Assembly: GCA_964420185.1 (NCBI GenBank)
Contig: CAYQSI010000010.1
Span: 4,456-68,455, forward strand
Direction of reading: 5' to 3'
DNA from: an uncultured Terracidiphilus sp.
GTDB taxonomy: Bacteria > Acidobacteriota > Terriglobia > Terriglobales > Acidobacteriaceae
Length of the DNA: 64,000 nucleotides
Notes under the pieces: generated by a model
The model's input: only the letters and a program-made list of their open reading frames with translations
What the model was told of the DNA's origin: nothing
Databases searched by the model: none
In this document: positions 163 to 56,949 of the stretch, one piece after another
Numbering within the stretch: position 1 is the first letter of the stretch
Layout of the letters: each line of letters starts with the position of its first letter
Translations under genes and position numbers: made by a program

Positions 163-699
163 ATGACCGATTCACGGCGAGGACTGATTCTGATCAACAC
201 CGGCGCAGGCAAGGGCAAGACCACTGCCGCACTGGGCACGGGGCTGCGCGCCGTGGGCAACGGGATGCGGGTGCTGATGATTCAGTTTCTCAAAGGCTCG
301 TGGCATTATGGTGAGCTGGACGCGGTGGAAGCCTTCGGACAGAACTTCGTGCTGAAACAGATGGGACGAGGGTTTGTGAAGGTGGGCGGCGCGGAGACCG
401 ATCCGGAGGACGTTCGGCTGGTGGAGGCCGCGTGGGCCGAGGCGCGCGAGGCCATCTACAGCGGCGAGTGGGATATGGTCATTCTGGACGAGATCAACTA
501 CGCCATCGGCTACGGGATGCTGGACGCGGCGGTGGTGGCAGAAGCGCTGCGTGGGCGGCCGGAGATGGTGCACGTAATTCTGACCGGGCGCAACGCCCAC
601 CCACTGCTGGTGGAAGTGGCCGATACGGTGACAGAAATGCGCGAGGTGAAGCACGCCTACCAGAAAGGGATTCTGGCGCAGCGCGGCATAGAATATTAG
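163..699 (+). CDS. cobO: cob(I)yrinic acid a,c-diamide adenosyltransferase (CobO/BtuR type)
   Basis: 178 aa. Has the P-loop 'NTGAGKGKTTAALG', 'MIQFLKG' and 'ILDEINYA' typical of the CobA/CobO/BtuR family. Confidence 0.85.
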   Translation: MTDSRRGLILINTGAGKGKTTAALGTGLRAVGNGMRVLMIQFLKGSWHYGELDAVEAFGQNFVLKQMGRGFVKVGGAETDPEDVRLVEAAWAEAREAIYSGEWDMVILDEINYAIGYGMLDAAVVAEALRGRPEMVHVILTGRNAHPLLVEVADTVTEMREVKHAYQKGILAQRGIEY

Positions 700-796
700 T
701 GAAGCAGCACACAGCGAAGAGCGGACAGCTTACAGTTTCCCCTAGCCCGCAAGAGCCGTTAACCGCCAACTGTCCGCTGTTTCAGAGAGAGGTCAA

Positions 797-1669
797 ATGT
801 CCTGGTTCAAGCGTGAAAGTGGCGAGTACGGTCCCAGCCCCAAGGGCAGCGCAGACGCGGCTGAGTCGCGGGTGCGCACTGAGGGCTTGTGGATCAAGTG
901 CGTGGGCTGCCGCGAGGTGATCTGGAAGGCCGATTTGCTGGCCAGCCTGAACGTGTGTCCCAAGTGCCAGCACCACTTCAGAATCGGAGCACGGCAGCGG
1001 ATTGATTTGCTGCTGGCACCGGGCTATGCACTGGTGGACGGCGGGCTGCGCTCGACCGATCCTCTGAACTTCAGTGATGTGAAGCGCTATAAGCAGCGGC
1101 TGCGGCAGGCGCAAGAGGCAACCGGCCTCAACGACGCGATTCTCAACGCAGTGGGCCAGCTTGGACCGCATCAAGTAGTGGTCAGCGCCATGGAGTATGG
1201 CTTCATCGGCGGGTCGATGGGCGCCGTGGTGGGCGAGACGATTGCCCGTGCCGTGGACCGCGCGCGGGTGGGCAGGATGCCGCTGATTGTGGTGGCCGCA
1301 TCCGGCGGTGCACGCATGATGGAGGGCGTGGTGAGCTTGATGCAAATGGCCAAAATCTCGACCGCGCTGGCGCAGTTGGACGACGCGAAGGTTCCTTACA
1401 TCTGCGTGCTCACCGACCCCACCACGGGCGGAGTTACCGCGAGCTTTGCCATGCTCGGCGACTTGAACATTGCCGAGCCGGGAGCGCTGATCGGCTTCGC
1501 CGGCCCGAGAGTTATCGAGCAGACAATTCGCCAGAAACTGCCCGAGGGCTTTCAACGCTCGGAGTTTCTGCTGGAAAAGGGATTTCTGGATGCGGTTGTG
1601 CCACGGCGGGAACTGAAGGGCTACCTTATTCGAGCGCTGGATTTTATGCGGGTTTCAGCGGTGGCGTAA
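797..1669 (+). CDS. accD: acetyl-CoA carboxylase carboxyltransferase beta subunit
   Basis: 290 aa. N-terminal Zn-ribbon 'CVGCREVIWKADLLASLNVCPKCQHHFR' followed by a carboxyltransferase core. Confidence 0.92.
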   Translation: MSWFKRESGEYGPSPKGSADAAESRVRTEGLWIKCVGCREVIWKADLLASLNVCPKCQHHFRIGARQRIDLLLAPGYALVDGGLRSTDPLNFSDVKRYKQRLRQAQEATGLNDAILNAVGQLGPHQVVVSAMEYGFIGGSMGAVVGETIARAVDRARVGRMPLIVVAASGGARMMEGVVSLMQMAKISTALAQLDDAKVPYICVLTDPTTGGVTASFAMLGDLNIAEPGALIGFAGPRVIEQTIRQKLPEGFQRSEFLLEKGFLDAVVPRRELKGYLIRALDFMRVSAVA

Positions 1670-1700
1670 GGTGCCTCTTTATAGCTCTATTTGCATGCAT

Positions 1701-1884
1701 TTTAGAGGGGTAGGAGCGGTTCTGGATATTTATTTGAATGTAGCAAGTTAGCCCGCTTCGCGGGGATAGCAAGTTAGCTAGTTAGCGGGATTGACGCTAC
1801 GAACCACGTCTCTGACTGGATGGTCTTGTGCTATTCAGTCTGTGGTTTCCCCGGTCTCAAAATCGAGACCGGGGGCACCCAGCC
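1701..1884 (+). repeat. Composite direct repeat of about 185 bp, copy 1 (GTTAGC hairpin element + left part of family-B MITE)
   Basis: Nearly identical to 2014-2196 by eye: 'gttctggatatttatttgaat.tagcaagttagcccgct.cgcggggatagcaagttagctagttagcgggattgacgctacga..cacgtctctga.tggatggtcttgtgctattcagtctgtggtttccccggtctcaaaatcgagaccgggggcaccc'. Confidence 0.9.
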
Positions 1885-1923
1885 ATCTTATAAATCCGAT
1901 TCTGCCCATGCAAGACGTCCCTC

Positions 1924-1990
1924 TGGGGCTAAAGCCCTCGAATCGATTGGGCGTTTTGCGGCACGGCTAAAGCCGAGCCCTTTCAAAACC
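1924..1990. repeat. Family-C mini-hairpin repeats (stem-CTRAAG-stem)
   Basis: Contains 'ggggctaaagccc' and 'gcacggctaaagccgagccctttcaaaacc'. The same words recur at 7360-7612, 15735-15790, 15895-15945 and 27185-27320. Confidence 0.75.
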
Positions 1991-2013
1991 TATTCATGAG
2001 ATAGGTTCTAGAA

Positions 2014-2196
2014 TTTTAGTGGAGCGGCGGGGTTCTGGATATTTATTTGAATTTAGCAAGTTAGCCCGCTACGCGGGGATAGCAAGTTAGCTAGTTAGCG
2101 GGATTGACGCTACGATTCACGTCTCTGAGTGGATGGTCTTGTGCTATTCAGTCTGTGGTTTCCCCGGTCTCAAAATCGAGACCGGGGGCACCCCGC
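2014..2196 (+). repeat. Composite direct repeat of about 185 bp, copy 2
   Basis: See copy 1 (1701-1884). Confidence 0.9.
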
Positions 2197-2216
2197 CTGC
2201 TCGCTGAATCCTACCT

Positions 2217-3389
2217 TCAGATGCGCATGGGCATGAGGACGTAGCGGTACTTGTACTCGGCGTCGGGGTCTTCGGGGCGCATCTGGCCGGCGGATTGCTG
2301 GTCCTTGAACTCGAGGCGGACTTCGCCGGCGTTGTCGAGGGCCTTGAGGAAGTCGAGGATGTAGGTGGAGTTGAAGCCCACGGTGATGGCTTCGCTCTGG
2401 TAGGGCGTGTCGATGGTGTCTTCGCTCTCGCCGGATTCAGAGGACTGGGCGCTGACCTTGAGCTCGTTGTCTTCAAGCTTCATGCGGATGGCGCCGGAGC
2501 GCTCGTCGGCGAACTGGGCGACGCGCTGGATGGCCGCGGAGAGCTCGCTGGAGCGGACGACGGCGAACTTGGTGTTGTCGCGCGGCATGACGGCTTCAAA
2601 GTTGGGGAACTGGCCGGAGAGCCTGCGCGTGCTGAGAGTGCGATGGCCGACACGGAAGAAGAGAGAGTGCTCGTCGTCAGCAAACTCGACCTTTTCGACG
2701 TCGGAGTTTGAGAGCAACTGTTGCAACTCCTGAAGAGCCTTGCGCGGAATGAGGACGCGCTTCTCGCCGCTGATGCCTTCGAGAACCTCGTTGGGCTTTT
2801 CGACGTAAGCAAGGCGATGGCCGTCAGTGGCTACCATGGCCAGCGACTCGGCCTTGATGACCAGGAGGGCACCGTTGAGGGTGTAGCGCGTCTCTTCGTT
2901 GGAGATGGCGAAGATGGTGTGATTGATGAGCGTCCGGAGCGCAGCCGCGGAGATGGCGGTGGCGGCGACGGAGGGAAACTCGGGAACCTGCGGGTAGTTG
3001 GCGCGCGCCATGCCGACCATCTTGGTGTTGGAGCGGCCACTGCGGATCTGGACCCAGTGGTTCTCAAGCAATTTGATGGCGATGTCCCCTTCGGGGAGGA
3101 GTTTTATGTAGTCGTAGAGCTTACGCGCGGGAATGGTGCAGGCTCCGGGCTTTTTCACCTTGGCCGCGGCGCTGGTGCGGATGGCCTGGTCGAGGTCAGT
3201 GGCGGTGATGTTGAGGCGGTCGTCCTCAGCCTCGATGAGAAAGTTGGACAAAATCGGAATGGTGGTCTTGCGCTCGACGACGCTTTGCGTCGCGGTAAGC
3301 TCCTTGACCAAGTCCAAACGGCTTACGGTAATCTCCATCGCTGCCCCCGGCGCGGCCGGCTTCTCGACTTCAGTTTCCACGTTCGACAT
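2217..3389 (-). CDS. dnaN: DNA polymerase III beta sliding clamp
   Basis: 390 aa. 'ITVSRLDLVKELTATQSVVERKTTIPILSNFLIEAEDDRLNITATDLD' and the C-terminal '..YRYVLMPMRI' are classic DnaN features. Confidence 0.93.
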   Translation of the reverse strand: MSNVETEVEKPAAPGAAMEITVSRLDLVKELTATQSVVERKTTIPILSNFLIEAEDDRLNITATDLDQAIRTSAAAKVKKPGACTIPARKLYDYIKLLPEGDIAIKLLENHWVQIRSGRSNTKMVGMARANYPQVPEFPSVAATAISAAALRTLINHTIFAISNEETRYTLNGALLVIKAESLAMVATDGHRLAYVEKPNEVLEGISGEKRVLIPRKALQELQQLLSNSDVEKVEFADDEHSLFFRVGHRTLSTRRLSGQFPNFEAVMPRDNTKFAVVRSSELSAAIQRVAQFADERSGAIRMKLEDNELKVSAQSSESGESEDTIDTPYQSEAITVGFNSTYILDFLKALDNAGEVRLEFKDQQSAGQMRPEDPDAEYKYRYVLMPMRI

Positions 3390-4035
3390 GAACCCACCCT
3401 CGTTTTACGCCATGCGAAGAAAACCCAATGGAAGCAGATTCCGCGCTGGCCACACTTTACAACAAGTTGCGCCGCGAGCGGAAGCGCCTCTGTTTTCTTC
3501 TTCTTGATTGTATTCACCCGCAGGGTTTCTGTGTGGGTGGAAAACAGGGTGGTTGTCTGGATTCCAGGGGAGTTCGCGCGATGAGCGGAAAGTGTGGGCA
3601 GGCGAAGTGAACGGGAGAGGCGATGGCGGGATTGCGATTTGAGGAGAGCGAAGCGACGGGTAGTGGGAAATGCAGTAAAGATTAAGAAAAAAGACAGTAG
3701 TACCCGTAGTTGCCGGAGGAAAAGTGGAAAGAAGGGTGAAATGGTTTGGGGTGAAGAGGTTGCGTTGGGGGTGAGTTTTCCAAAACAGGGCTGTGCAAAT
3801 GAGCGAATTTGGAAAACAAGGCTTTGAGTGGGGTGAAGCGTACTGAGTTTCCCACGACTCGCACAGGGAAACGAAATACGGCTGTGCAAAGAGCACGATT
3901 TGTGTGAAAAGCGCGTCCGCGAGCGCGTGGGATAAGGGGTTCGAAGGGACGGGCTATACACAGAGGACGGGTCTTCCACAACTTCCACAAAGGACAGGCG
4001 GAGATGTGCGAATCAAGGGAAGATTTAGCAATAGG

Positions 4036-4137
4036 TCTCTGACCAGATGGTTTCATACCATTCAATCCGTTGTTTCCCCGGTCTCAAAATCGAGACCGGA
4101 GGCACCCAGCATTGGTACAACTTCACGCGGTCAGAGA
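4036..4137. mobile_element. Family-B MITE, full copy (about 102 bp)
   Basis: Terminal inverted repeats 'tctctgacc'...'ggtcagaga' flank the core 'gtttccccggtctcaaaatcgagaccggaggcaccc'. Near-identical copies lie at 15788-15884, 15947-16046 and 16680-16781. Confidence 0.8.
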
Positions 4138-4241
4138 AGTAGAGAGAAGGCGAGAGGATTCCCGGCTTTGGTTTGTGGCGATTCAAAGTTCCCATTTGGT
4201 TCTCGGGCGCAGGAGAAAGATCTGGTTTATATCGGGCTTGA

Positions 4242-15678: not shown

Positions 15679-15787
15679 GGCGGTTGCGCCGTGCGGCAAA
15701 AGGATGAATTTCGAGCAAAACGCACGGAAGGCATCCCTCGGGGGCTAAAGCCCCGACCTACCAGTCGTGCCCTGAAAGGCTCCTAGT

Positions 15788-15884
15788 CCCTGACTGGATG
15801 GTTTCGTACCATTGAATCCGTGGTTTCCCTGGTCTCAAAATCGAGACCAGGGGCACCCAACATTGGTACAACTTCAAGCGGTCA
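15788..15884. mobile_element. Family-B MITE copy
   Basis: See 4036-4137. Confidence 0.8.
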
Positions 15885-15946
15885 GCATTTACGGCAGTCA
15901 GGGCTAAAGCCCTGACCTACCAGTCGTGCCCTGACAGGCTCCTAGT

Positions 15947-16046
15947 TCCTGACTGGATGGTTTCGTACCATTGAATCCGTGGTTTCCCTGGTCTCAAAAT
16001 CGAGACCAGGGGCACCCAACATTAGTACAACTTCAAGCGGTCAGAG
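15947..16046. mobile_element. Family-B MITE copy
   Basis: See 4036-4137. It lies in tandem with 15788-15884, each preceded by a family-C word 'gggctaaagccc.gacctaccagtcgtgccctga'. Confidence 0.8.
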
Positions 16047-16048
16047 AC

Positions 16049-16579
16049 CTAGGAGGGGAAGAGAAGGTCTGAGGTGGCTGGCAGGGTGGTCAGGCGAGCG
16101 CGGCGACGGGACGGCTGTGGATCGGGGGAGGCGAGGAGGTTGGCAATCTCGCGGAGTTCTGCTCGAGCATGGGCGATGGCGGAGGCGACCTCGTCCAGAT
16201 TTTGGCCGGAGAGGGGCTGGGCGGCGCCGACGACCAGGAGCGGCAACCGGGGCTGCGGATCGCTCTGTTGCACTGGTTGTGGTTGGGGATCATGGTGGCG
16301 GTGGGCCTGTTCCAGCGCTTGCCGGGCGCCAGCCAGCGTGTAGCCCTCAATGTGGACCAAGTGCTTGATCTTCAGGGCCAGCTCGACATCACGGCGGCGG
16401 TAAAGCCGCTGGCCGGTTCCGCTCTTGTTGGGTTTGAGCTGGGGAAACTGCGTCTCCCAAAAGCGCAGGACATAGGTTTCGACGCTGCAGATGCGGGCCA
16501 CGTCACCAATCTTGAAGTAGAGGCGGTCGGGGATGGCGGGCGAGTCGAGGGCGCTGTTCTGAAGTAGTTGCATGGCCAT
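16049..16579 (-). CDS. MerR family transcriptional regulator
   Basis: 'YFKIGDVARICSVETYVLRFWETQFPQLKPNKSGTGQRLYRRRDVELALKIKHLV' is a MerR-type HTH. The start is trimmed to M43 of the ORF because the upstream part is the MITE. Confidence 0.8.
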   Translation of the reverse strand: MAMQLLQNSALDSPAIPDRLYFKIGDVARICSVETYVLRFWETQFPQLKPNKSGTGQRLYRRRDVELALKIKHLVHIEGYTLAGARQALEQAHRHHDPQPQPVQQSDPQPRLPLLVVGAAQPLSGQNLDEVASAIAHARAELREIANLLASPDPQPSRRRARLTTLPATSDLLFPS

Positions 16580-16679
16580 GGTAAAGGCGAGGAGGACACC
16601 GCAACTGGGGTGGAAACCCTTCTCTAGAGGCAGTATAGGTAGGATTTGCACTAAATGTGAAGCAAAATTTGCAGTTAAG

Positions 16680-16781
16680 TCTCTGACCTCGTGGTTTCGT
16701 ACCATTCAATCCGTGGTTTCCCGGGTCGGAAAATCGAGAGCCGGGGCACCCAGCCATGGTACAAATTCAAGCGGTCAGAGA
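16680..16781. mobile_element. Family-B MITE copy
   Basis: 'tctctgacctcgtggtttcgtaccattcaatccgtggtttcccgggtcggaaaatcgagagccggggcacccagccatggtacaaattcaagcggtcagaga'. Confidence 0.8.
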
Positions 16782-16860
16782 CCTAGCGGACATTCAAATT
16801 GAAAAGAACAGAGGAATGCTGACCCGAATTGATGAGAAATCGATCCGGGCCAGGAGAGGC

Positions 16861-49406: not shown

Positions 49407-51224
49407 TTACCCAATGTTCTTTTCCCAGCGCTTGGGGCGGCGGTTTTGCTGCAATATCCTCTTGCGCAACCGCAGAGACTTGGGCGTGATTTCCACCACC
49501 TCATCCTCGGCGACGAACTCGATGGCCTGCTCCAGGTTCAGGGCTTTGTAAGGCACCAGGCGGACGGCTTCATCGGCGGTCGAGGCGCGCATGTTGGTCA
49601 TATGCTTCTCGCGCACCACGTTCACGTCGAGGTCGTTATCGCGTGAGTGCTCGCCGACGATCATTCCCTCGTAAACCTCAACCCCCGCGCCTACAAACAA
49701 AACTCCGCGCTCTTGCAGGCCGTTCAGCGAATAGGTTGTGGTAAGTCCCTGGCGGTCGGAAATCAACGCGCCGGTGGGCCGCTGCGGAATCTCACCCTGA
49801 TAGGGGATGTAACCGTCGAAGAGTGAGTTCATCACGATGGTGCCGCGCGTATCGGTGAGCATCTCGCTGCGCAGGCCGATGATGCCGCGGCTGGGTACAC
49901 GGAACTCCATGCGCACGCGGCCCGAGCCGTGATTGTGCATCTTGGTCATTTCGCCCTTGCGCGGCCCCAGCTTTTCGATCACCACGCCGGTGTACGCATC
50001 GGGCACGTCGATGGTCAGGCGCTCGACCGGCTCCATGTTCACGCCGTCCACCGTCTTGGTGACGATCTCAGGCCGCCCGGCCATCAGCTCAAAGCCCTCG
50101 CGGCGCATCATCTCGATCAAAATCGCAAGTTGCAGTTCGCCCCGGCCCAGCACCTTGAAGCTGTCTGGCGAGCCGGTCTCTTCCACGCGAATCGAGACGT
50201 TGATGAGCAGTTCTTTTTCCAGGCGCTCGCGCAGGTTGCGGCTGGTTACATACTGACCCTCGCGCCCGGCAAAGGGCGAGTTGTTCACGCTGAACTGAAT
50301 GGCGATGGTCGGCTCGTCAATCACAATCAGCGGCAGCGGCGCGGGGTTTTCGACGCTGGTGATGGTCTCGCCGATGGTGATGCCCTCGACGCCAGCGACG
50401 GCCACAATGTCGCCCATGACGGTCTCGGCAATTTCAGTCCGCTTCAGGCCGGAGAAGGTGAAGAGCTTGGTGATGCGCGTCTTCATCAGTGACCCATCGC
50501 GCTTGGAAATGGTCACATCGTCGCCGGTGCGCAGTGTGCCCTGGAAGACGCGGCAAATGGCGATGCGGCCCAGATAATCGGAGTAATCGAGATTGGTGAC
50601 CAGAATCTGCAATGTACCCTCGGCGTCGCCGGTGGCTGGCGGAATCGTCGAGACGATGGCCTCGAAGAGCGGCTGCAGGTCCACGCCAGGCGTGTCCGGA
50701 TCGAGGGATGCCGTGCCCGCTTTGGCCACTGCGTAGAGTACCGGGAAGTCCAGTTGCGTCTCGTCCGCATCGAGGTCGATGAAGAGGTCGTAGATCTCGT
50801 TCAATACTTCCTTGGGGCGGGCGTCGGGGCGGTCAATCTTGTTGATCACCACGATGGGCTTGAGCTTGGCTTCCAAAGCCTTGGACAGTACGTAACGGGT
50901 CTGCGGCAACGGGCCTTCGGCCGCGTCAACGAGAAGCATTACCCCGTCCACCATCTTGAGAGCGCGCTCCACTTCGCCGCCAAAGTCGGCGTGGCCGGGC
51001 GTATCTACGATGTTGATCTTGCCGCCTTCAAAAACGATGGCCGTGTTCTTGGACAGGATGGTGATGCCGCGCTCCCGCTCCAGCTCGTTCGAGTCCATCA
51101 CTCGTTCTGCCACCTGCTCGTTGGCGCGGAACGTCCCCGACTGCCGCAGCATGGCGTCTACAAGGGTTGTCTTGCCGTGGTCAACATGGGCAATGATGGC
51201 GATATTGCGTATCGTCTGGGTCAC
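49407..51224 (-). CDS. typA: translational GTPase TypA/BipA
   Basis: GTG start at 51224 lies after AAGGAAAAG. '[25 protein letters not shown]', '[14 protein letters not shown]' and 'NKIDR', with full-length collinearity to BipA. Confidence 0.93.
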
Positions 51225-51458
51225 AGGGTAGCTTTTCCTTCTTTTGGTTCGGCCTAAGAGGCCATAGGGTTGGGGAACAAATAAGTCAATTCGCCGCACA
51301 CTGCGGCACTTTCTATTGTATCAGCAGGGGAGAAAAGCAGATTCTTGGGCCTATGATCCCGCTTCAAATGGCCTGAAGACGGCAGCAAACAGCCTGGTTC
51401 CGGACCCGAGGCGCGCGATTCGCGGTAAGATGGGTCTCGCTTCGCTTTTGCCTAACCT

Positions 51459-51742: not shown

Positions 51743-52058
51743 CTGGCAGCGAGGCTGGTTTCGGTAACGTTGCGCATGGCTTCTCTGGCCGGAGGGGATT
51801 TCGCTTCTTTGTCAATCTCTTCCAGTGTGCGCCAATGGAGGGTTATTTTCGGCCAGCACGGACCGTTCAGGCGTACGCCTTCGGTTGATCAGGCAATGTT
51901 TGTGGTTTGAGTGGAAAAATGGAAAGGTTGGGCTCGTGGTTTCCCAGGTCCTAAAAGCGAGACCCTTCGACTTCGCCCAGGGCAGGCTCTGGGGCACCCG
52001 GCAGGTTGAGGGCCATCGTTTCCCAGGTCCGAAAATCCGGACTTGAGGCATCCTTTCA

Positions 52059-52757
52059 TTAGTGAGTTGGACCTGCGCCACTTGTCATTCTCTTCAAATA
52101 GAACGGAGTAGACCACCCGCTGGAGGGAGCAGAGACCGCGAGGCTCGTTAATAATCTGCAGTTGATTTCCTTTATTCCGTCCTCAAACGATGAGTGCAAT
52201 AAACACTTTGGAATCCATTCATTTTGGGTTTTCAATACCTTGAGTATTTGTTCGGCTTTGTGAATATCGATATAACCTTCGTCGTAAAGAAAAGCAAACA
52301 TGTCGTATGACCTGAATACCTTTGGTGGAAGCTGTTTTCCGCTTGATTCCAGCGCCCGTATTGCATTCGCATCGTTGCTAACTGTAGGAGTGTCCAATAG
52401 TATACCTGCCGCATGTGTATAAGCTTCGCCGGTCCCGACATAAAGAGCATAATCTTTTCCAAGCCGTCTGATATCTGCTAGAGAGACAGACGCAGACATT
52501 ACGGAACTCAGTTGCTCTAGATCTGAGGAACTCAAGATTTTAAGGTGCCCGCTCTTTAAGGAGCTATCTAATGGAATCCTCACAAGCGCCCCAAGTTTCC
52601 TATTAGAGCGAACCTCAACCTCAACTTCACTCATAATGTACGAAGAAACCCCAAAGTCTGTGAAAAGAACCTTGAAAAGCTGCTGCTGACCGGCCAGTAG
52701 AATTTGGAGTAGAGCATCCGAGTCGAAAAAGAACGAAACTTCCGGCTCGGTAGCCAT
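52059..52757 (-). CDS. PIN-like domain protein (putative nuclease)
   Basis: 232 aa. The acidic residues are spaced as in PIN domains: 'SFFFDSDALLQIL', 'MSEVEVEV' and 'GEAYTHAAGILLDTPTVSNDANAI'. The start codon overlaps the upstream stop (TAATG). Sits in a low-GC region. Confidence 0.5.
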   Translation of the reverse strand: MATEPEVSFFFDSDALLQILLAGQQQLFKVLFTDFGVSSYIMSEVEVEVRSNRKLGALVRIPLDSSLKSGHLKILSSSDLEQLSSVMSASVSLADIRRLGKDYALYVGTGEAYTHAAGILLDTPTVSNDANAIRALESSGKQLPPKVFRSYDMFAFLYDEGYIDIHKAEQILKVLKTQNEWIPKCLLHSSFEDGIKEINCRLLTSLAVSAPSSGWSTPFYLKRMTSGAGPTH

Positions 52758-54142
52758 TACTCCATGACCTCCGCAGCCACATCAGAGAATCTTGAGGCGA
52801 ATGTGCTCTCATCGATCATTAGCAATTCAGCAGCCCTGCTCACGCTGATGCTATATGCCTTGACTGCTTCTAGGACCGCTTTCACATAGGGCACAGGTAG
52901 AAGCAACTTCCTCTTGGTCGATGATGTGAGCCGCTTACCCTTCCACGCTGAAGCCGCCTTCGGGCCGATTTTAGCTTCGTACTCATTTGTGCTTAAAGCG
53001 TGAATAGATATTTCTCGAAGTTCCTGGGCAATATCATAGGAAAGATAATGTTGAAACAGAGCTTCATCAATCAAGTCGCGATCTCGCATCACTTGAACAA
53101 TAGTCTTTCTCTCAACGCCTGATTGCGCTACTAGAACTGCCAGTGCCTCTTGAGTCAACTTCGAAGGCTGGTAGCCGTTCTTATTGCAAAGGCTCAAAAG
53201 GAGCTTCCTAGGCAGGAGTGTTTCGCGCGCGAACGTCTCAGCGCGCACTTCTATCACCGTTTGCTGGTCCGTTGTACTGCCAGCATCTGAGATAGTATCG
53301 ATCTGCCCACCGGAGGTCTGATCGAAAAGCGCATGCCCCAATTCATGCATGATAATGACGTTGCGCCTGAACCACGTCGTCCTATAAGTATTTACAAAAA
53401 TACAAGGTCGCTGCGCTGAGCTTTCTCCGACATAAAAACTGCAGCCCTCCACTTCCGATTGCGGAAGCGGGCTCTCAATGAGTAGAATCCCCTTCGACCG
53501 CAGTTGATCGCGAAGTATTTCGCCTGATCCATTAGCTCCATGGCCAAATTGATTTAGCTCGCAAAAGACACGTGCGGCAACCCTCCCTTGATCGGCGGGA
53601 GATGCTTGAATATCGATCTGACGCATTATGGTCTGGAAAATAACATCCCAGGCTTTGTTAGGTTGACCGAGTGTCGCCTGCTCCAATTCGTTGGCGTTGT
53701 GTCCGAGCCGCCGAATTGCGAGGATTGATTCTCTATCGGCGTCTGTAAATTCACTACCGCGGAATTTGAACCAGATTGCAGCTGGCTCTCCTTTAGGCTG
53801 CCCCTCTGCGGAGCCAATTGAATTGGATGTTAGAACCTCGGCCTTTACCCCTAATGTTGCGGCGAGAATTGCCGCATAAGAGGGGGGCATCTCTCGCTGA
53901 GAATTGACCCATTGTTGAAAGATTTCATGGTCAACTCCCAACACATCTGCGCAAGCATTCGTTCCTATGCCTGCTTGCTCTATGGTCTTCAGCAGAGACA
54001 TCTTCCTCACCCGGTCTCGTTCCTCACCCAGTCTCGGAATCGAGACATATATCTGTTGACTTCCGAAGATGACACTACCACGCTCATCCCGAATTATCGG
54101 CAACGGACAGGCGGAGTTCAGTTTCCGTACACAATCAATCAT
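52757..54142 (-). CDS. XRE-HTH + ImmA/IrrE (COG2856, DUF955) zinc metallopeptidase fusion protein
   Basis: 461 aa. HTH region 'LKTIEQAGIGTNACADVLGVDHEIFQQWVNSQREMPPSYAAILAATLGV', the HEXXH motif 'IIMHELGHALFD', and a second HTH-like segment near the C-terminus. An alternative start lies at 54001. Confidence 0.75.
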   Translation of the reverse strand: MIDCVRKLNSACPLPIIRDERGSVIFGSQQIYVSIPRLGEERDRVRKMSLLKTIEQAGIGTNACADVLGVDHEIFQQWVNSQREMPPSYAAILAATLGVKAEVLTSNSIGSAEGQPKGEPAAIWFKFRGSEFTDADRESILAIRRLGHNANELEQATLGQPNKAWDVIFQTIMRQIDIQASPADQGRVAARVFCELNQFGHGANGSGEILRDQLRSKGILLIESPLPQSEVEGCSFYVGESSAQRPCIFVNTYRTTWFRRNVIIMHELGHALFDQTSGGQIDTISDAGSTTDQQTVIEVRAETFARETLLPRKLLLSLCNKNGYQPSKLTQEALAVLVAQSGVERKTIVQVMRDRDLIDEALFQHYLSYDIAQELREISIHALSTNEYEAKIGPKAASAWKGKRLTSSTKRKLLLPVPYVKAVLEAVKAYSISVSRAAELLMIDESTFASRFSDVAAEVME

Positions 54143-54266
54143 CAGTCAACAGGCTATTGCTGCGCAAGAGTTTCCCAAAATAAACGCGCAACGTAGTCCC
54201 AGCCGTGTGCGGGTTCCCCAGGCCTCGCTTCTGGGACCTGGGATTCACCCATGAACAGCGCAGTCG

Positions 54267-55343
54267 CTACCCTCTGCGGCCGCGGACGGCTTCCTTGGCT
54301 TCGGCGGGGCCGGTGGCGGGGACTTCGGGGATGTCGGCCTTGAGGCTGGTGATACCCAGCTTCTTGCGCAGTTCGGCGTCCATTTTGGCGAAGACTTCCT
54401 TGTTCTCCTTGAGGAAGGTGCGGGTGTTTTCGCGCCCCTGGCCGATGCGCTCGCCAGCGTAGCTATACCAGGCGCCGGACTTCTCGGCGATATTGTTGGC
54501 CACAGCCTGGTCGAGCACGTCGCCCTCGCGGCTGATGCCCTCGCCGTAGAGAATGTCGAACTCCGCCTCGCGGAAGGGCGCGGCCACCTTGTTCTTGACG
54601 ATCTTGACCTTGGTCCGGTTGCCGGTGACGGCGTCGCCATCCTTGATGGCGGCGATGCGGCGAATGTCCACGCGCATCGACGAGTAGAACTTGAGCGCAC
54701 GACCGCCGGTGGTGGTTTCCGGGTTGCCGAACATGACGCCAATCTTCTCGCGGATCTGGTTGATGAAGATCAGCGCGGTGCGGGATTTGGAGACCGTGCC
54801 GGTGAGTTTGCGCAGGGCCTGGGACATGAGCCGGGCCTGCAGACCCATGTGGGACTCGCCCATCTCGCCGTCCAACTCAGCCTTGGGCACCAGCGCGGCC
54901 ACCGAGTCCAGCACCAGCACGTCGATGGCGCCGGAGCGGACCAGGGCCTCCGTGATTTCCAGAGCCTGTTCGCCGCTGTCGGGCTGCGAAACCAGAAGAT
55001 TGTCGATATCCACGCCCAGTTTTTTGGCGTACTGGGGGTCGAGGGCGTGCTCAGCATCGACAAATGCCGCCAGGCCACCGGCCTTTTGCGCCTCGGCGAT
55101 CACCTGCAGGCAAATGGTGGTTTTGCCCGAGGACTCGGGGCCGTAAACCTCGGTGACGCGGCCGCGCGGGATTCCACCCACGCCCGTTGCTGCGTCAAAG
55201 CTGATGGAGCCGGTGGAGATCACGGCAATCGGCACCAGCGCCTCTTTGGACCCGAGCCGGACAATCGACCCTTTGCCAAACTGTTTTTCGATCTGTGCAA
55301 GGGCAAGTTCTACGGCCTTGGCGCGGTCATCGGCAATTGCCAT
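54267..55343 (-). CDS. recA: recombinase RecA
   Basis: '[23 protein letters not shown]', '[21 protein letters not shown]' and '[22 protein letters not shown]'. Confidence 0.97.
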
Positions 55344-55507: not shown

Positions 55508-55804
55508 TCAGACGGTATAAGCGCCGACGCGGATCTCGCGGCTGGTCAGCTCGTCGCAGGCGCGGTCCAGGGTTTCGTAGTCGGCGTCGTGGTCCTTGCG
55601 GAAGGCGCGGAAGGCCTCTTCGCTGGCCCAACGGTCGATGGTCAGGTAGCTGCCGGGGATGTAGGCGTCGCGCAGCAACTCCGTGCCCTGGTAACCGGAC
55701 GATGCGCGGAAGAGTTGCGCCCAAGCGCCCTCGGCCGAATAAGCGGCCTCAAAGCCGGAAATCTTCTCTTCAGCAACCTCGAACTGCCAGACAACGACGA
55801 ACAT
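55508..55804 (-). CDS. antibiotic biosynthesis monooxygenase (ABM) domain protein
   Basis: Trimmed to 'MFVVVWQFEVAEEKISGFEAAY..'. At about 98 aa it has the size and pattern of a ferredoxin-like ABM domain. Confidence 0.65.
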   Translation of the reverse strand: MFVVVWQFEVAEEKISGFEAAYSAEGAWAQLFRASSGYQGTELLRDAYIPGSYLTIDRWASEEAFRAFRKDHDADYETLDRACDELTSREIRVGAYTV

Positions 55805-56328
55805 ACGCGCACCCAATCTTGCCCTTATGGTAACGCAGGGGGGGCTGTGATGGCGAAGGCGCAAGAAAATTCCACGATCCAGGAGCGAGACGCGGGCGCC
55901 ATTTTAGTGTTGGCTCGGATGGCAGAAGGCGTATGAAATGTGGACTTTAGCACGGGTAATCGTGTTGGCGGGTAGTCTCCTCCCGGCCGAAAATGAAAAT
56001 TTCTCCAGCGAGAGAGGAGTAAAAAGTTTGCACATTCTCTGACTTTAGTAACGTGTAGGCTATTGAATTTACAGATGATATATGCGAGCGCGGCATGCAT
56101 AATCTAGTTAGCCAACATCTGAAGTGCGCAGGCGGACGTTTCTTTAAGTGTTCCCCCTGCTGTTCTTTGTTTTTGCACAGCTTCAATGGGGTACAATGCT
56201 TCGCAGGGGTAAAGAGCTGGTATTTCAGTGCTTTGCCCGGCCCGGCCTATAGGGTTTTTGGACGGTCAACCGCCAAAAAGCGTTAGCAAGGCAGATGCCC
56301 GCGAAGGAGAACTTGGGAGGTTTGAACG

Positions 56329-56949
56329 ATGGTGAATAAACTCTGGTTCCTTGTACTCGCGTCAGCAACCGCGCTTGCGATGTCGCCAGCCGCAAAGGCG
56401 GACTCGTTCGACGTCACGCTCAGCAGCACCGCCGGCCCCGGCCTGACCGCCAGTGGCACCCTCAGCGGTTCCTCGCTCGGCGGCGGCGCGTTTAGCATCA
56501 CCGGGGGAAACATGACGATCGACGGAATGACCGCAACCGTCATCGGAAATCCATACTCGTCAGCGGTAGCTTTTGATGACCTTTCCACGGGCGGGACCAT
56601 TAGTCTGACGATGCCTTCCTTTAAAGACGATTGGTTTTCTTTCGACGATGTCCTCATACCGGGAACCACGCCGTATGTGAACGGCAACGGACTCCTCTTC
56701 CTCCTTTCAAATGGGGGGGTGGTTGAGTTCTACGACTATGATGGCGCTCTTTCCTGGAACGAGTTCGTCGATGGTGCGTGGGTGATAGACTCCAGCCTCC
56801 CCAATGTTGAGGCAGGCGGCCAGGTGGTTAGCGCAAACATCTCGACCGCGCCGGAGGCGTCCTCGTCGCTGTTGTTCGGCACCGGGCTGCTCTTGCTGGC
56901 AGGCTTCCTTTTCTGGAAGGCCAGGCCCGGCATGGTCAGAGCCAAGTAG
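56329..56949 (+). CDS. PEP-CTERM sorting-domain secreted protein
   Basis: Signal peptide 'LWFLVLASATALAMSPAAKA'. The C-terminal 'APEASSSLLFGTGLLLLAGFLFWKARP' is a PEP-CTERM anchor. Confidence 0.75.
   Translation: MVNKLWFLVLASATALAMSPAAKADSFDVTLSSTAGPGLTASGTLSGSSLGGGAFSITGGNMTIDGMTATVIGNPYSSAVAFDDLSTGGTISLTMPSFKDDWFSFDDVLIPGTTPYVNGNGLLFLLSNGGVVEFYDYDGALSWNEFVDGAWVIDSSLPNVEAGGQVVSANISTAPEASSSLLFGTGLLLLAGFLFWKARPGMVRAK

What the first reader, a model, noticed from the sequence alone, without database searches (positions are those of the whole stretch)
52059..54142. Low-GC two-gene island between typA and recA: HTH-ImmA/IrrE metallopeptidase translationally coupled to a PIN-like protein
Sampled 60-nt lines in this stretch have about 35-52% GC, against about 60-65% in the flanking recA and typA lines, so it looks horizontally acquired. 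Gene 1 (461 aa) fuses an XRE-type HTH, a DUF955/ImmA-IrrE zinc protease (HEXXH 'MHELGHALF') and a further C-terminal HTH-like segment. Gene 2 (232 aa) starts on the stop of gene 1 (TAATG) and has acidic residues spaced as in PIN nucleases ('FFFDSD', 'SEVEVE', 'GEAY..', 'VSNDANA'). COG2856-XRE modules are known sensor or antitoxin partners of diverse toxins and anti-repressors of mobile elements. I do not recognise this particular fused architecture with a PIN-like effector as a named system. Degenerate family-B repeats (about 51930-52050) flank it on one side, and the recA 3' region flanks the other.
Basis: partly seen in the sequence, partly recalled or inferred. Interest (0 to 1): 0.7.

Follow-up and report, generated by a model that had tools for sequence, protein, structure and literature searches.

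The report
Mobile protease–PIN toxin-antitoxin-like defence pair
A horizontally acquired two-gene cassette (a DNA-binding zinc protease plus a PIN-like nuclease) sits between recA and typA in a slot where close relatives carry other anti-phage genes; it is a new, uncurated member of an architecture that has already been described and is partly validated experimentally.

Summary
Two minus-strand genes (52757-54001 and 52059-52757) share a one-base stop/start overlap (TAATG). Their GC is 48% (GC3 0.46-0.50) against 61% (GC3 about 0.8) for recA and typA. One correction: gene 1 starts at Met48 and is 414 aa, not 461 aa. Gene 1 is an XRE-HTH + M78/ImmA-IrrE protease (invariant HEXXH; fold matches CapP and IrrE) with a helical HTH-like C-terminus. 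Gene 2 belongs to an uncurated family of about 230 aa with no Pfam, NCBIfam, PADLOC or PHROG hit. Its confident model matches PIN/VapC structures, and D12, E48, E111 and D129 are conserved with VapC-like spacing. No sequence-level link to PIN was found. The pair is adjacent, with the same overlap, in 9 unrelated genomic contexts, and both genes are under purifying selection. Relatives with 99% or 91% identical recA carry a SmaI-type R-M system or a PDC-S41 helicase in the same slot, bordered by REP-like hairpins. HTH-COG2856 fusions upstream of PIN-like genes were predicted in 2009 and 2017, and the M78 antitoxin hub is validated in RosmerTA. This is therefore a new member of a known kind. Toxicity, neutralisation and defence are untested.

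The parts
54211..54243 (.). recA-side boundary: a degenerate copy of the REP-like palindrome, and the crossover point of cargo exchange
   Evidence: nhmmer hit to the REP-element HMM. It is one arm of inverted repeat I1. Homology with L094 (same slot, R-M cargo) ends at 54211, and homology with L010 (same module, different neighbourhood) begins at 54241.
54002..54210 (-). 5' leader and probable promoter region of the operon. It holds the conserved palindrome GTCTCG-ATTC-CGAGAC (54046-54031) and a lineage-specific 17-nt tandem duplication (54036-54003) that includes the GAGGAA ribosome-binding motif.
   Evidence: The leader is conserved with L010 (86%) and L007. The palindrome is kept in the window, L010 and L007. 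The duplication is present only in the window lineage. Operator function is inferred, not shown.
52757..54001 (-). Gene 1: a 414-aa protein with an XRE-type HTH, an M78 (ImmA/IrrE, COG2856) zinc metallopeptidase and a helical C-terminal HTH-like segment. Predicted antitoxin, sensor and autoregulator.
   Evidence: Pfam PF06114: 43.5 bits against a cut-off of 22. H219, E220, H223 and E251 are invariant. AF2 pLDDT 89.6. Foldseek matches CapP 7t5t, IrrE 3dti and PprI 8sln with probability 1.0. HTH_31/HTH_3 hits in 6 and 4 of 42 members. phrog_2439 over residues 3-360, E 1.6e-19. The start at Met48 follows. Ka/Ks 0.11.
52059..52757 (-). Gene 2: a 232-aa PIN-like protein (core about residues 6-150) with a family-specific C-terminal extension of about 75 aa. 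Predicted nuclease toxin/effector.
   Evidence: No hit in Pfam, NCBIfam, PADLOC or PHROGs. The family has 193 clusters at 50% identity. AF2 pLDDT 87.1, pTM 0.86. The PDB fold hits with probability 0.85-1.0 are almost all PIN/VapC/Nmd4/Utp24/HARP, with TM 0.5-0.62 by target. D12, E48, E111, D129 and D152 are conserved. Ka/Ks 0.14.
52016..52053 (.). typA-side boundary: a degenerate REP-like hairpin immediately downstream of the gene 2 stop
   Evidence: nhmmer E 2.6e-4. Contains the motif GGACCTGGGAAAC.
51935..52003 (.). Second degenerate REP-like copy on the typA side; the other arm of inverted repeat I1
   Evidence: nhmmer E 9.5e-6. I1 arms are 51942-51986 and 54199-54243, 45 nt, 71% complementary. 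Homology with L094 resumes at 51878.

Best explanation
This is a mobile, bicistronic, toxin-antitoxin-like module of the RosmerTA-like class (HTH-M78 protease paired with a toxin), lodged in a variable defence slot between recA and typA.

Shown here: the two genes are translationally coupled, always travel together, are under purifying selection and are compositionally foreign. Gene 1 is an HTH-fused M78 metallopeptidase with an intact HEXXH site. Gene 2 has a PIN-like predicted fold with a conserved acidic set.

Inferred mechanism:
1. The N-terminal XRE HTH of gene 1 autoregulates the operon, possibly through the conserved GTCTCG-N4-CGAGAC palindrome in the leader.
2. In uninfected cells the gene 1 protein keeps the PIN nuclease inactive, by direct binding and/or by repression.
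3. A trigger such as phage infection or DNA damage activates the CapP/IrrE-like protease. By analogy with ImmA, IrrE and CapP, which cleave HTH repressors, the protease cleaves its own HTH-bearing polypeptide, in cis or in trans, at one of the two predicted disordered linkers (residues 61-69 or 240-246).
4. The freed or over-expressed PIN nuclease cleaves RNA. Growth stops and the infection aborts.
For: - Operon anatomy and coupling: the one-base stop/start overlap TAATG/TAGTG/TGATG is conserved in 9 independent contexts.
- Strict co-occurrence holds down to 28-30% identity of gene 2, always with an M78 gene of 406-418 aa directly upstream, while the flanking genes differ each time.
- Both genes are under purifying selection, with Ka/Ks 0.11 and 0.14.
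- The M78 domain scores above the Pfam threshold with an invariant HEXXH, and the fold matches CapP/IrrE/PprI with probability 1.0.
- The PIN-like fold is supported. Conserved D12/E48/E111/D129 have spacings of 36/63/18 residues, against 35/56/21 for the D7/E42/D98/E119 usually cited for Shigella VapC (recalled from the literature; D7 is confirmed as a mutated residue by the entry names). Each lies at the end of a predicted strand or the start of a helix.
- Defence context: the same recA-typA slot carries a SmaI-type R-M system (L094) or PDC-S41 (L095) in close relatives. In L181 the pair is next to an integrase, a Prim-Pol and a transposase.
- Literature: RmrA-type M78 antitoxins are validated, rmrA could not be deleted (possibly because of toxicity), and RosmerTA defends against phages. 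The ImmA hub is associated with PIN-like domains. HTH-DUF955 + PIN-like operons were predicted earlier.
Against: - No sequence-level link between gene 2 and any PIN family was found. Pfam hits among 106 members were at noise level, profile searches of the PDB found no PIN protein, and hhalign against VapC gave probability 0.2. Foldseek E-values are weak (2e-3 to 5e-2).
- PADLOC RmrA models match gene 1 only over the peptidase core (28 bits), and no RmrT model matches gene 2. Current tools would therefore not call this a Rosmer system.
- Gene 1 lacks the GAF-like sensor domain that IrrE and, from memory, CapP carry (its C-terminus is all helical), so the trigger is unknown.
- There is no evidence for toxicity, neutralisation, self-cleavage or phage defence.
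- No relatives occur on any annotated phage or plasmid.
Confidence: 0.6

Rival explanations
1. A plain addiction or stabilisation type II TA module with no role in phage defence. The pair persists as a selfish element, and the protease domain only tunes antitoxin turnover.
For: It is a two-gene overlapping operon with patchy distribution, mobility and foreign composition. A decayed copy in L177 at the site of the intact L174 copy fits a dispensable selfish element. Makarova 2009 classed such pairs as TA systems.
Against: The slot is used by bona fide or candidate defence systems in relatives. M78-antitoxin systems that have been tested do defend against phages. The two roles are not mutually exclusive.
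Confidence: 0.2
2. The roles are reversed or regulatory. The M78 protease is the toxic or effector component (as first proposed for COG2856-Xre), or the pair is a transcriptional switch in which the PIN-like protein is a non-toxic accessory or an RNA-processing factor.
For: Makarova 2009 listed COG2856 as the predicted toxin with Xre as the antitoxin. Gene 2 has a conserved C-terminal extension of about 75 aa and unknown role. Gene 1 matches a phage 'transcriptional regulator' PHROG over its full length.
Against: In the validated RosmerTA systems the M78 protein is the antitoxin. Gene 2 keeps a full set of conserved acidic residues typical of active PIN nucleases. The antitoxin-first gene order matches most type II systems; this last point is general knowledge and was not tested here.
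Confidence: 0.1
3. A remnant regulatory module of a larger mobile element (ImmA/ImmR-like anti-repressor circuitry of a prophage or ICE) that was left behind after the element was lost.
For: ImmA-type proteases control ICE and prophage repressors. In L181 the pair is beside an integrase, a Prim-Pol and a transposase. Gene 1 has full-length phage relatives in PHROGs.
Against: In 8 of 9 contexts there is no integrase or other element gene nearby, and the conserved unit is exactly the two genes plus the leader. Both genes are under purifying selection. No tRNA or att-like site was found.
Confidence: 0.05
4. An IrrE/DdrO-like DNA-damage regulator functionally tied to the neighbouring recA.
For: The fold resembles IrrE/PprI, which controls recA induction in Deinococcus, and the module is physically next to recA.
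Against: A relative with 99% identical recA lacks the module and has an R-M system there instead. The module occurs in eight other neighbourhoods without recA. There is no separate DdrO-like repressor gene and no GAF-like domain.
Confidence: 0.03

Closest known systems
RosmerTA (RmrT/RmrA) and the NetFlax 'ImmA/D25' antitoxin hub (Millman 2022; Ernits 2023, PMC10440598)
   Same: An M78/ImmA zinc peptidase, often with an N-terminal HTH, acts as antitoxin to a swappable toxin in a two-gene operon. These systems have validated anti-phage activity, and an association of this hub with PIN-like domains is noted in the paper.
   Different: PADLOC RmrA models match gene 1 only weakly, over about 100 residues of the peptidase core (best 28 bits), and no RmrT model matches gene 2. 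Gene 1 is larger (414 aa) and has an extra helical C-terminal HTH-like region. No experimental data exist for this family.
Predicted three-component TA systems: HTH-DUF955/COG2856 fusion upstream of PIN-like genes (DUF4411.1, COG2405, PIN_14/20/26) (Makarova 2009, PMC2701414; Matelska 2017, PMC5499597)
   Same: The architecture and gene order are the same: a fused HTH-protease upstream and a PIN-like gene downstream. The proposed logic is also the same: the protease removes an HTH repressor or antitoxin and so releases the PIN nuclease.
   Different: Gene 2 matches neither Pfam DUF4411 (PF14367) nor any other curated PIN family, and it carries a conserved C-terminal extension of about 75 aa. 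I could not test whether it equals one of Matelska's unpublished-in-Pfam clusters (PIN_14/20/26).
VapBC (PIN-domain toxin with a DNA-binding antitoxin)
   Same: The predicted PIN fold matches. The acidic residues D12/E48/E111/D129 have VapC-like spacing. The operon is antitoxin-first with overlapping genes.
   Different: There is no detectable sequence similarity to VapC. The upstream partner is a 414-aa metallopeptidase rather than a small AbrB/RHH/Phd antitoxin. A fifth conserved acidic residue (D152) and a C-terminal domain are present.
CapH/CapP (CBASS regulators) and IrrE/DdrO, ImmA/ImmR
   Same: The M78 protease fold is shared, and these are the top structural matches. In each case the protease cleaves an XRE-type HTH protein in response to a signal.
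   Different: In those systems the HTH substrate is a separate protein, whereas here it is fused. No GAF-like sensor domain is predicted. The controlled output here is a single adjacent PIN-like gene, not CBASS, a DNA-repair regulon or an ICE.

Membership tests
Peptidase M78 / ImmA-IrrE / COG2856 (PF06114) | Match to the family HMM above the curated threshold | tested here: met
   43.5 bits against a cut-off of 22, E 3e-11. All 42 of 42 family members match.
Peptidase M78 / ImmA-IrrE / COG2856 (PF06114) | Conserved HEXXH zinc-binding/catalytic motif | tested here: met
   H219, E220 and H223 (414-aa numbering) are invariant in 42 sequences, as is the downstream E251.
Peptidase M78 / ImmA-IrrE / COG2856 (PF06114) | Fold shared with solved members | tested here: met
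   Foldseek matches CapP 7t5t, IrrE 3dti/3dte and PprI 8sln with probability 1.0, TM by target 0.40-0.46, from a model with pLDDT 89.6.
XRE-type HTH fused to the protease | N-terminal helix-turn-helix domain recognised by HTH models | tested here: inconclusive
   The window copy has only sub-threshold hits (YdaS E 0.035, HigA E 0.027). HTH_31 is matched by 6 and HTH_3 by 4 of 42 relatives. phrog_2439 and repressor PHROGs cover residues 3-84. The model shows four short helices at residues 3-50.
PIN domain-like superfamily | Three-layer alpha/beta/alpha fold with a parallel sheet, matching solved PIN domains | tested here: met
   For a model with pLDDT 87, nearly all PDB hits with probability 0.85-1.0 are PIN proteins (1y82, VapC 3h87/5h4g/5ecw/5k8j, Nmd4, Utp24, HARP), with TM by target 0.5-0.62. 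The E-values are only 2e-3 to 5e-2.
PIN domain-like superfamily | Four conserved acidic residues at the canonical positions | tested here: met
   E111, D129 and D152 are invariant, and D12 and E48 are at least 90% conserved, in 106 sequences of 20-52% identity. Each lies at the end of a strand or the start of a helix in the predicted secondary structure. Their clustering in 3D could not be measured because no coordinates were available.
PIN domain-like superfamily | Sequence or profile match to a curated PIN family (PF01850, PIN_3, DUF4411 and others) | tested here: not met
   The window protein has no Pfam hit. Among 106 relatives, PIN is matched by 1 (E 0.019) and PIN_9 by 1 (E 0.1), which is noise level. 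Profile searches of the PDB found no PIN protein. hhalign against VapC gave probability 0.2.
PIN domain-like superfamily | Metal-dependent nuclease activity | not testable with these tools
   Needs a biochemical assay.
RosmerTA (as defined by the PADLOC RmrA/RmrT models) | RmrA model match over its full length | tested here: inconclusive
   Twelve RmrA models hit, but the best is 28 bits (E 2e-7), and all but one (residues 59-318) cover only about 100 residues of the peptidase core.
RosmerTA (as defined by the PADLOC RmrA/RmrT models) | Partner gene matching an RmrT model | tested here: not met
   Gene 2 has no PADLOC hit at E up to 1.
RosmerTA (as defined by the PADLOC RmrA/RmrT models) | Toxin neutralised by the peptidase protein; phage defence | not testable with these tools
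   Needs toxicity/neutralisation and plaque assays.
Type II toxin-antitoxin module (generic) | Two small adjacent co-oriented genes, overlapping or tightly spaced, inherited as a unit with a patchy, mobile distribution | tested here: met
   The one-base stop/start overlap is conserved in 9 contexts with unrelated flanks. The module is absent from the same slot in 99%-recA relatives. GC is foreign in 5 of 6 loci.
IrrE/DdrO and CapP/CapH protease-repressor pairs | Separate adjacent XRE-family repressor gene as substrate, and a C-terminal GAF-like sensor domain | tested here: not met
   There is no separate HTH gene inside the 2.15-kb conserved unit. The C-terminal half of the model is all helical.

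The most novel reading that the evidence does not exclude
The recA-typA interval of this acidobacterial lineage may work as an integrase-free cassette-exchange site. Short REP-like hairpins at the cargo borders would serve as the recombination substrates through which unrelated defence modules (M78-PIN, SmaI R-M, PDC-S41) replace one another. The module itself would be a self-cleaving sensor-antitoxin, with the fused HTH as the protease's own substrate, responding to an ssDNA or DNA-damage signal as CapP and IrrE do.
Probability: 0.15. Interest if true: 0.6.

Novelty: new member of a known kind. Interest (0 to 1): 0.35.

Why it matters
The PIN-like partner is a family of at least 193 clusters at 50% identity that no curated library (Pfam, NCBIfam, PADLOC, PHROGs) recognises, so current annotation and defence-finding pipelines miss these modules completely. 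Defining the family would extend the catalogue of effectors paired with M78 antitoxins into soil and peat Acidobacteria. A fused HTH-protease with a strictly linked single effector is also a compact model for the main open question about Rosmer-like systems: what activates the protease and what it cleaves. The three-way cargo replacement at one REP-bordered slot beside recA is a clean natural example of defence-island turnover at near-strain resolution.

Tried and rejected
- Empty-site test in species-representative genomes: none of the 80 closest recA loci, including one with 90% identical recA, has typA within 8 kb. No empty site is available at that level. The metagenome scan through typA gave replaced sites rather than an empty one.
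- Sequence-level proof of PIN homology failed by every route tried:
  - Pfam scan of 106 relatives.
  - Two profile searches of PDB sequences.
  - hhalign of the family profile against Shigella VapC, whose sequence was first verified as 3tnd_A.
  - An iterative VapC HMM over all fetched DNA, which found 0-1 PIN genes.
  - A viral-contig scan, which found 1 VapC relative.
  - A plasmid tblastn, whose hits were dominated by one enterobacterial subfamily. I did not pursue it because the resulting profile would be too narrow.
- The last big protein search, run with the family profile, found only unannotated relatives.
- The 17-nt direct repeat upstream of the start was considered as an operator and rejected. 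It is a private tandem duplication, since L010 and L007 have one copy.
- The 461-aa reading of gene 1 is rejected.
- A functional link to recA is rejected.
- tRNA or Rfam elements as integration targets: none found.
- Phage or plasmid carriage of gene 2: none found. Distant plasmid HTH-M78 proteins pair with unrelated upstream genes.
Full report
OBSERVATION

The two minus-strand ORFs exist as described: 52757..54142 (461 aa from the first ATG) and 52059..52757 (232 aa). They lie between typA/bipA (49407..51299) and recA (54267..55343). The junction reads GGAG-TAATG, so the stop of gene 1 and the start of gene 2 share one base, with GGAGG/GGAG motifs just upstream.

GC in 300-nt windows falls to 0.42-0.53 across the stretch, against 0.57-0.65 in the flanking genes. 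Over the coding region the module is 48.3% GC against 61.4% for recA plus typA. Third-position GC is 0.50 and 0.46 against 0.83 and 0.79.

One correction is needed. All 78 homologues of gene 1 are about 405-418 aa. All eight relatives checked have in-frame stop codons 5-25 codons upstream of the Met that corresponds to Met48. The open 47-codon extension in the window is the by-product of a lineage-specific 17-nt tandem duplication at 54003-54036. Gene 1 is therefore 52757..54001 and 414 aa.

GENE 1

Gene 1 matches Pfam Peptidase_M78 (PF06114) at 43.5 bits against a cut-off of 22. In an alignment of 42 relatives at 32-93% identity, the HEXXH residues H219, E220 and H223 and a downstream E251 are invariant.

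The AlphaFold model built on that alignment is confident (pLDDT 89.6, pTM 0.90). It has two disordered segments, at residues 61-69 and 240-246. Its best structural matches are CapP (7t5t), IrrE (3dti/3dte) and PprI bound to ssDNA (8sln), all with probability 1.0. Short segments match XRE/HigA-type HTH domains.

The N-terminal 60 residues are a helical bundle. In the window copy they give only sub-threshold HTH hits. In relatives they reach HTH_31 (6 of 42) and HTH_3 (4 of 42). A phage family annotated as a transcriptional regulator, phrog_2439, matches residues 3-360 at E 1.6e-19.

The C-terminal 45 residues form three short helices with a strongly conserved IS-x-S-K-A-A-E-L-L-M-I-D motif and a weak Xre-like-HTH hit. 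No GAF-like beta-rich sensor domain of the kind found in IrrE is predicted.

GENE 2

Gene 2 has no hit in Pfam, NCBIfam, PADLOC or PHROGs. It belongs to a family of proteins of about 225-265 aa. The word-indexed search found 34 close relatives, and the exhaustive search found 193 clusters at 50% identity with E up to 0.001. All are unannotated.

Across 106 members at 20-52% identity to the window protein, G110, E111, D129 and D152 are invariant, and D12, Q18, V45, E48, A112, A116, P124, A132, R149, L175, E180 and R201 are at least 90% conserved.

The AlphaFold model is confident (pLDDT 87.1, pTM 0.86). Against the PDB, almost all matches with probability 0.85-1.0 are PIN-domain proteins: 1y82, VapC toxins 3h87/5h4g/5ecw/5k8j/6ifc/3zvk, yeast Nmd4, Utp24 and HARP RNase P. 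TM-scores are 0.5-0.62 normalised by target, but E-values are only 2e-3 to 5e-2. The non-PIN hits (UbiX-type flavoproteins, aldolase) mostly have lower probabilities.

The predicted secondary structure follows the PIN order. Strand 7-11 ends at D12. Helix 43-50 carries E44 and E48. Helix 112-120 begins right after E111. A short strand at 125-126 leads into S127-N128-D129. Another strand at 147-148 leads into D152.

The spacings D12-E48-E111-D129 are 36, 63 and 18 residues. For Shigella VapC the residues usually cited as catalytic are D7, E42, D98 and E119, with spacings of 35, 56 and 21. That residue assignment is recalled from the literature; the D7A and D7N entries confirm D7 as a mutated residue. 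The mapping of gene 2 residues onto these positions is my inference.

I could not obtain any sequence-level link. Profile searches of PDB sequences, Pfam scans of all 106 members and hhalign against a verified VapC sequence were all negative. Residues 150-225 form a family-specific extension that includes the conserved E180, W181, C200 and R201.

THE TWO GENES AS ONE MOBILE UNIT

Every intact relative of gene 2 that I looked up has an M78 gene of 406-418 aa immediately upstream, with the same one-base stop/start overlap (TAATG, TAGTG or TGATG). This holds in nine unrelated neighbourhoods and down to 28-30% identity of gene 2.

One copy (L177) sits at the same site as an intact copy (L174) but has a fragmented protease gene, so it appears to be decaying. 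In L181 the pair lies beside a phage-type integrase, an HTH_17 gene, a Prim-Pol and a transposase.

Against L010 both genes show purifying selection, with Ka/Ks 0.11 and 0.14. The module is lower in GC than its surroundings in 5 of 6 loci.

DNA homology between the window and L010/L012 (86% identity, unrelated flanks) runs from 54241 to 52089. It covers a short hairpin, a leader of about 210 nt, gene 1 and nearly all of gene 2. The leader contains a palindrome, GTCTCG-ATTC-CGAGAC (54046-54031), that is also kept in L010 and L007. It is a candidate operator, but this is inference only.

A VARIABLE DEFENCE SLOT

None of the 80 closest species-representative genomes has typA near recA. Metagenome contigs gave two informative relatives:

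- L094 (recA 99% and typA 98% identical at the protein level) keeps the recA-typA adjacency. In place of the two genes it carries an N6/N4 DNA methyltransferase and a SmaI-family restriction endonuclease (PADLOC MTase_II E 4e-130, REase_II E 1e-88), plus a small FRP-like ORF.
- L095 (about 91% identical) carries a 687-aa Schlafen-group-3-like helicase that matches the candidate defence model PDC-S41 at E 2e-207.

Homology between the window and L094 stops at 54211 and resumes at 51878.

In the wider set of relatives with about 90% identical typA, the gene upstream of typA is highly variable and mostly ordinary. One further defence gene turned up there: a GmrSD/HEC-06 enzyme in L102.

REP-LIKE BORDERS

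The borders of the slot carry degenerate copies of a dispersed REP-like element. The element is a nested palindrome of about 140 nt with six full copies elsewhere in the window. It folds into one long hairpin (-60.5 kcal/mol, z = -5.3) and is absent from Rfam.

Core copies lie at 54211-54243 on the recA side and at 52016-52053 and 51935-52003 on the typA side. Equivalent copies lie at the cargo borders in L094 and L095.

The recA-side hairpin is where homology with L094 ends, and it is also where homology with L010 begins. It therefore marks the crossover point. Whether the hairpins mediate the exchange is inference.

MECHANISM

Shown: this is a translationally coupled, co-inherited, selected and foreign two-gene unit. 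It consists of an HTH-fused M78 protease with an intact active site and a protein with a PIN-like predicted fold and a conserved acidic set. It sits in a slot that relatives use for defence genes.

Inferred, from established knowledge of the related systems: ImmA/ImmR, IrrE/DdrO and CapP/CapH are signal-activated M78 proteases that cleave XRE-type HTH proteins, and in RosmerTA the M78 protein is the antitoxin and the system protects against phages. By analogy:

1. The gene 1 protein autoregulates the operon and keeps the PIN nuclease silent.
2. An infection or damage signal activates the protease.
3. The protease cleaves its own HTH-bearing chain, in cis or in trans, most plausibly at one of the two disordered linkers.
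4. The PIN nuclease then degrades RNA and arrests the cell.

I put about 0.85 on the identity of the module as a mobile M78 + PIN-like TA-type pair, and about 0.6 on this mechanism as a whole.

Rivals, with my confidence in each:
- A purely selfish addiction module (0.2).
- Reversed or purely regulatory roles (0.1).
- A remnant of prophage or ICE immunity circuitry (0.05).
- An IrrE-like regulator of the neighbouring recA (0.03). This is contradicted by the 99%-recA relative that lacks the module and by the eight other contexts without recA.

COMPARISON WITH WHAT IS KNOWN

The architecture is not new. Makarova et al. 2009 reported that COG2856-Xre fusion genes frequently share an operon with PIN or RelE toxins and proposed a three-component TA system. 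Matelska et al. 2017 described HTH-DUF955 fusion genes upstream of the PIN-like families DUF4411.1, COG2405 and PIN_14/20/26, with the same proposed logic. Millman et al. 2022 validated RosmerTA, with a zinc-peptidase antitoxin. Ernits et al. 2023 described the ImmA protease as a hub antitoxin, validated one RosmerTA system, and noted its association with PIN-like domains.

What is new is the partner. It is a sizeable PIN-like family with a C-terminal extension that no curated library recognises, found so far only in metagenomes and MAGs. Where a source names the organism, these are soil and peat Acidobacteriota. The family has no relatives on annotated plasmids or phages.

By HMM criteria the pair would not be called Rosmer, because RmrA models hit only the peptidase core and no RmrT model hits gene 2. 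It would not be called DUF4411 either.

I rate it a new member of a known kind, with moderate-to-low interest. The REP-bordered three-way cargo replacement beside recA is the most interesting side result.

Noticed in passing
window 1787-1927, 2101-2243, 4019-4157, 15765-15904, 15924-16065, 16658-16800: There are six full copies of a nested-palindrome REP/MITE-like element of about 140 nt. It folds into one long hairpin (-60.5 kcal/mol, z = -5.3) and matches no Rfam family. Two of the loci hold closely spaced pairs of copies. Degenerate core copies border the recA-typA cargo.
   Followed up: partly
window 54003-54036: A perfect-register 17-nt tandem duplication (CGAGACYGGGTGAGGAA x2, minus strand) lies immediately upstream of the true gene 1 start. 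It is private to this lineage. It duplicates the ribosome-binding motif and opens a spurious 47-codon N-terminal extension.
   Followed up: yes
L094 1794-4315 and L095 about 490-3200: The same recA-typA slot carries a SmaI-type type II R-M system plus an FRP-like 128-aa ORF in a relative with 99% identical recA. In a relative about 91% identical it carries a PDC-S41 / Schlafen-group-3-like helicase.
   Followed up: yes
L102 4114-5823: A GmrSD-type (HEC-06 / type IV) restriction enzyme lies directly upstream of typA in another relative with about 90% identical typA. In other relatives the typA-upstream gene is highly variable and mostly ordinary.
   Followed up: partly
L177 5318-7101 (compare L174 4781-6786): This is a decayed copy of the module at the same chromosomal site as an intact one. 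The protease gene is split into fragments of 132 aa and 57 aa, and the gene 2 relative is called as 366 aa.
   Followed up: no
L181 1105-7101: The protease-PIN pair lies next to a phage-type integrase, an HTH_17 (excisionase-like) gene, a Prim-Pol/PriCT_1 gene and a transposase. In this lineage it is therefore probably cargo of an integrative mobile element.
   Followed up: no
L002 490-5694: A metagenome contig carries island proteins 100% identical to the window's and a 99.5% identical typA, but its recA is only 94% identical. This suggests a mosaic or recombination across the slot, or an assembly chimera.
   Followed up: no
window about 55750-56350: A second low-GC patch (0.46-0.52) lies upstream of recA, between a 118-aa ORF and a 206-aa ORF. 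It holds no long ORF.
   Followed up: no
L010 397-525; L184-L187 2410-2538: A 42-aa BrnA_antitoxin fragment sits just upstream of the module in one lineage. This hints that the module landed in, or next to, an older TA locus.
   Followed up: no
L178 1323-3310; L179 1331-3169: Distant HTH-M78 proteins of about 385-397 aa on Rhodococcus and Deinococcus plasmids are annotated only as 'XRE family transcriptional regulator'. Each is paired with an unrelated hypothetical gene directly upstream (toxin-first order), which is consistent with partner swapping around the M78 hub.
   Followed up: no
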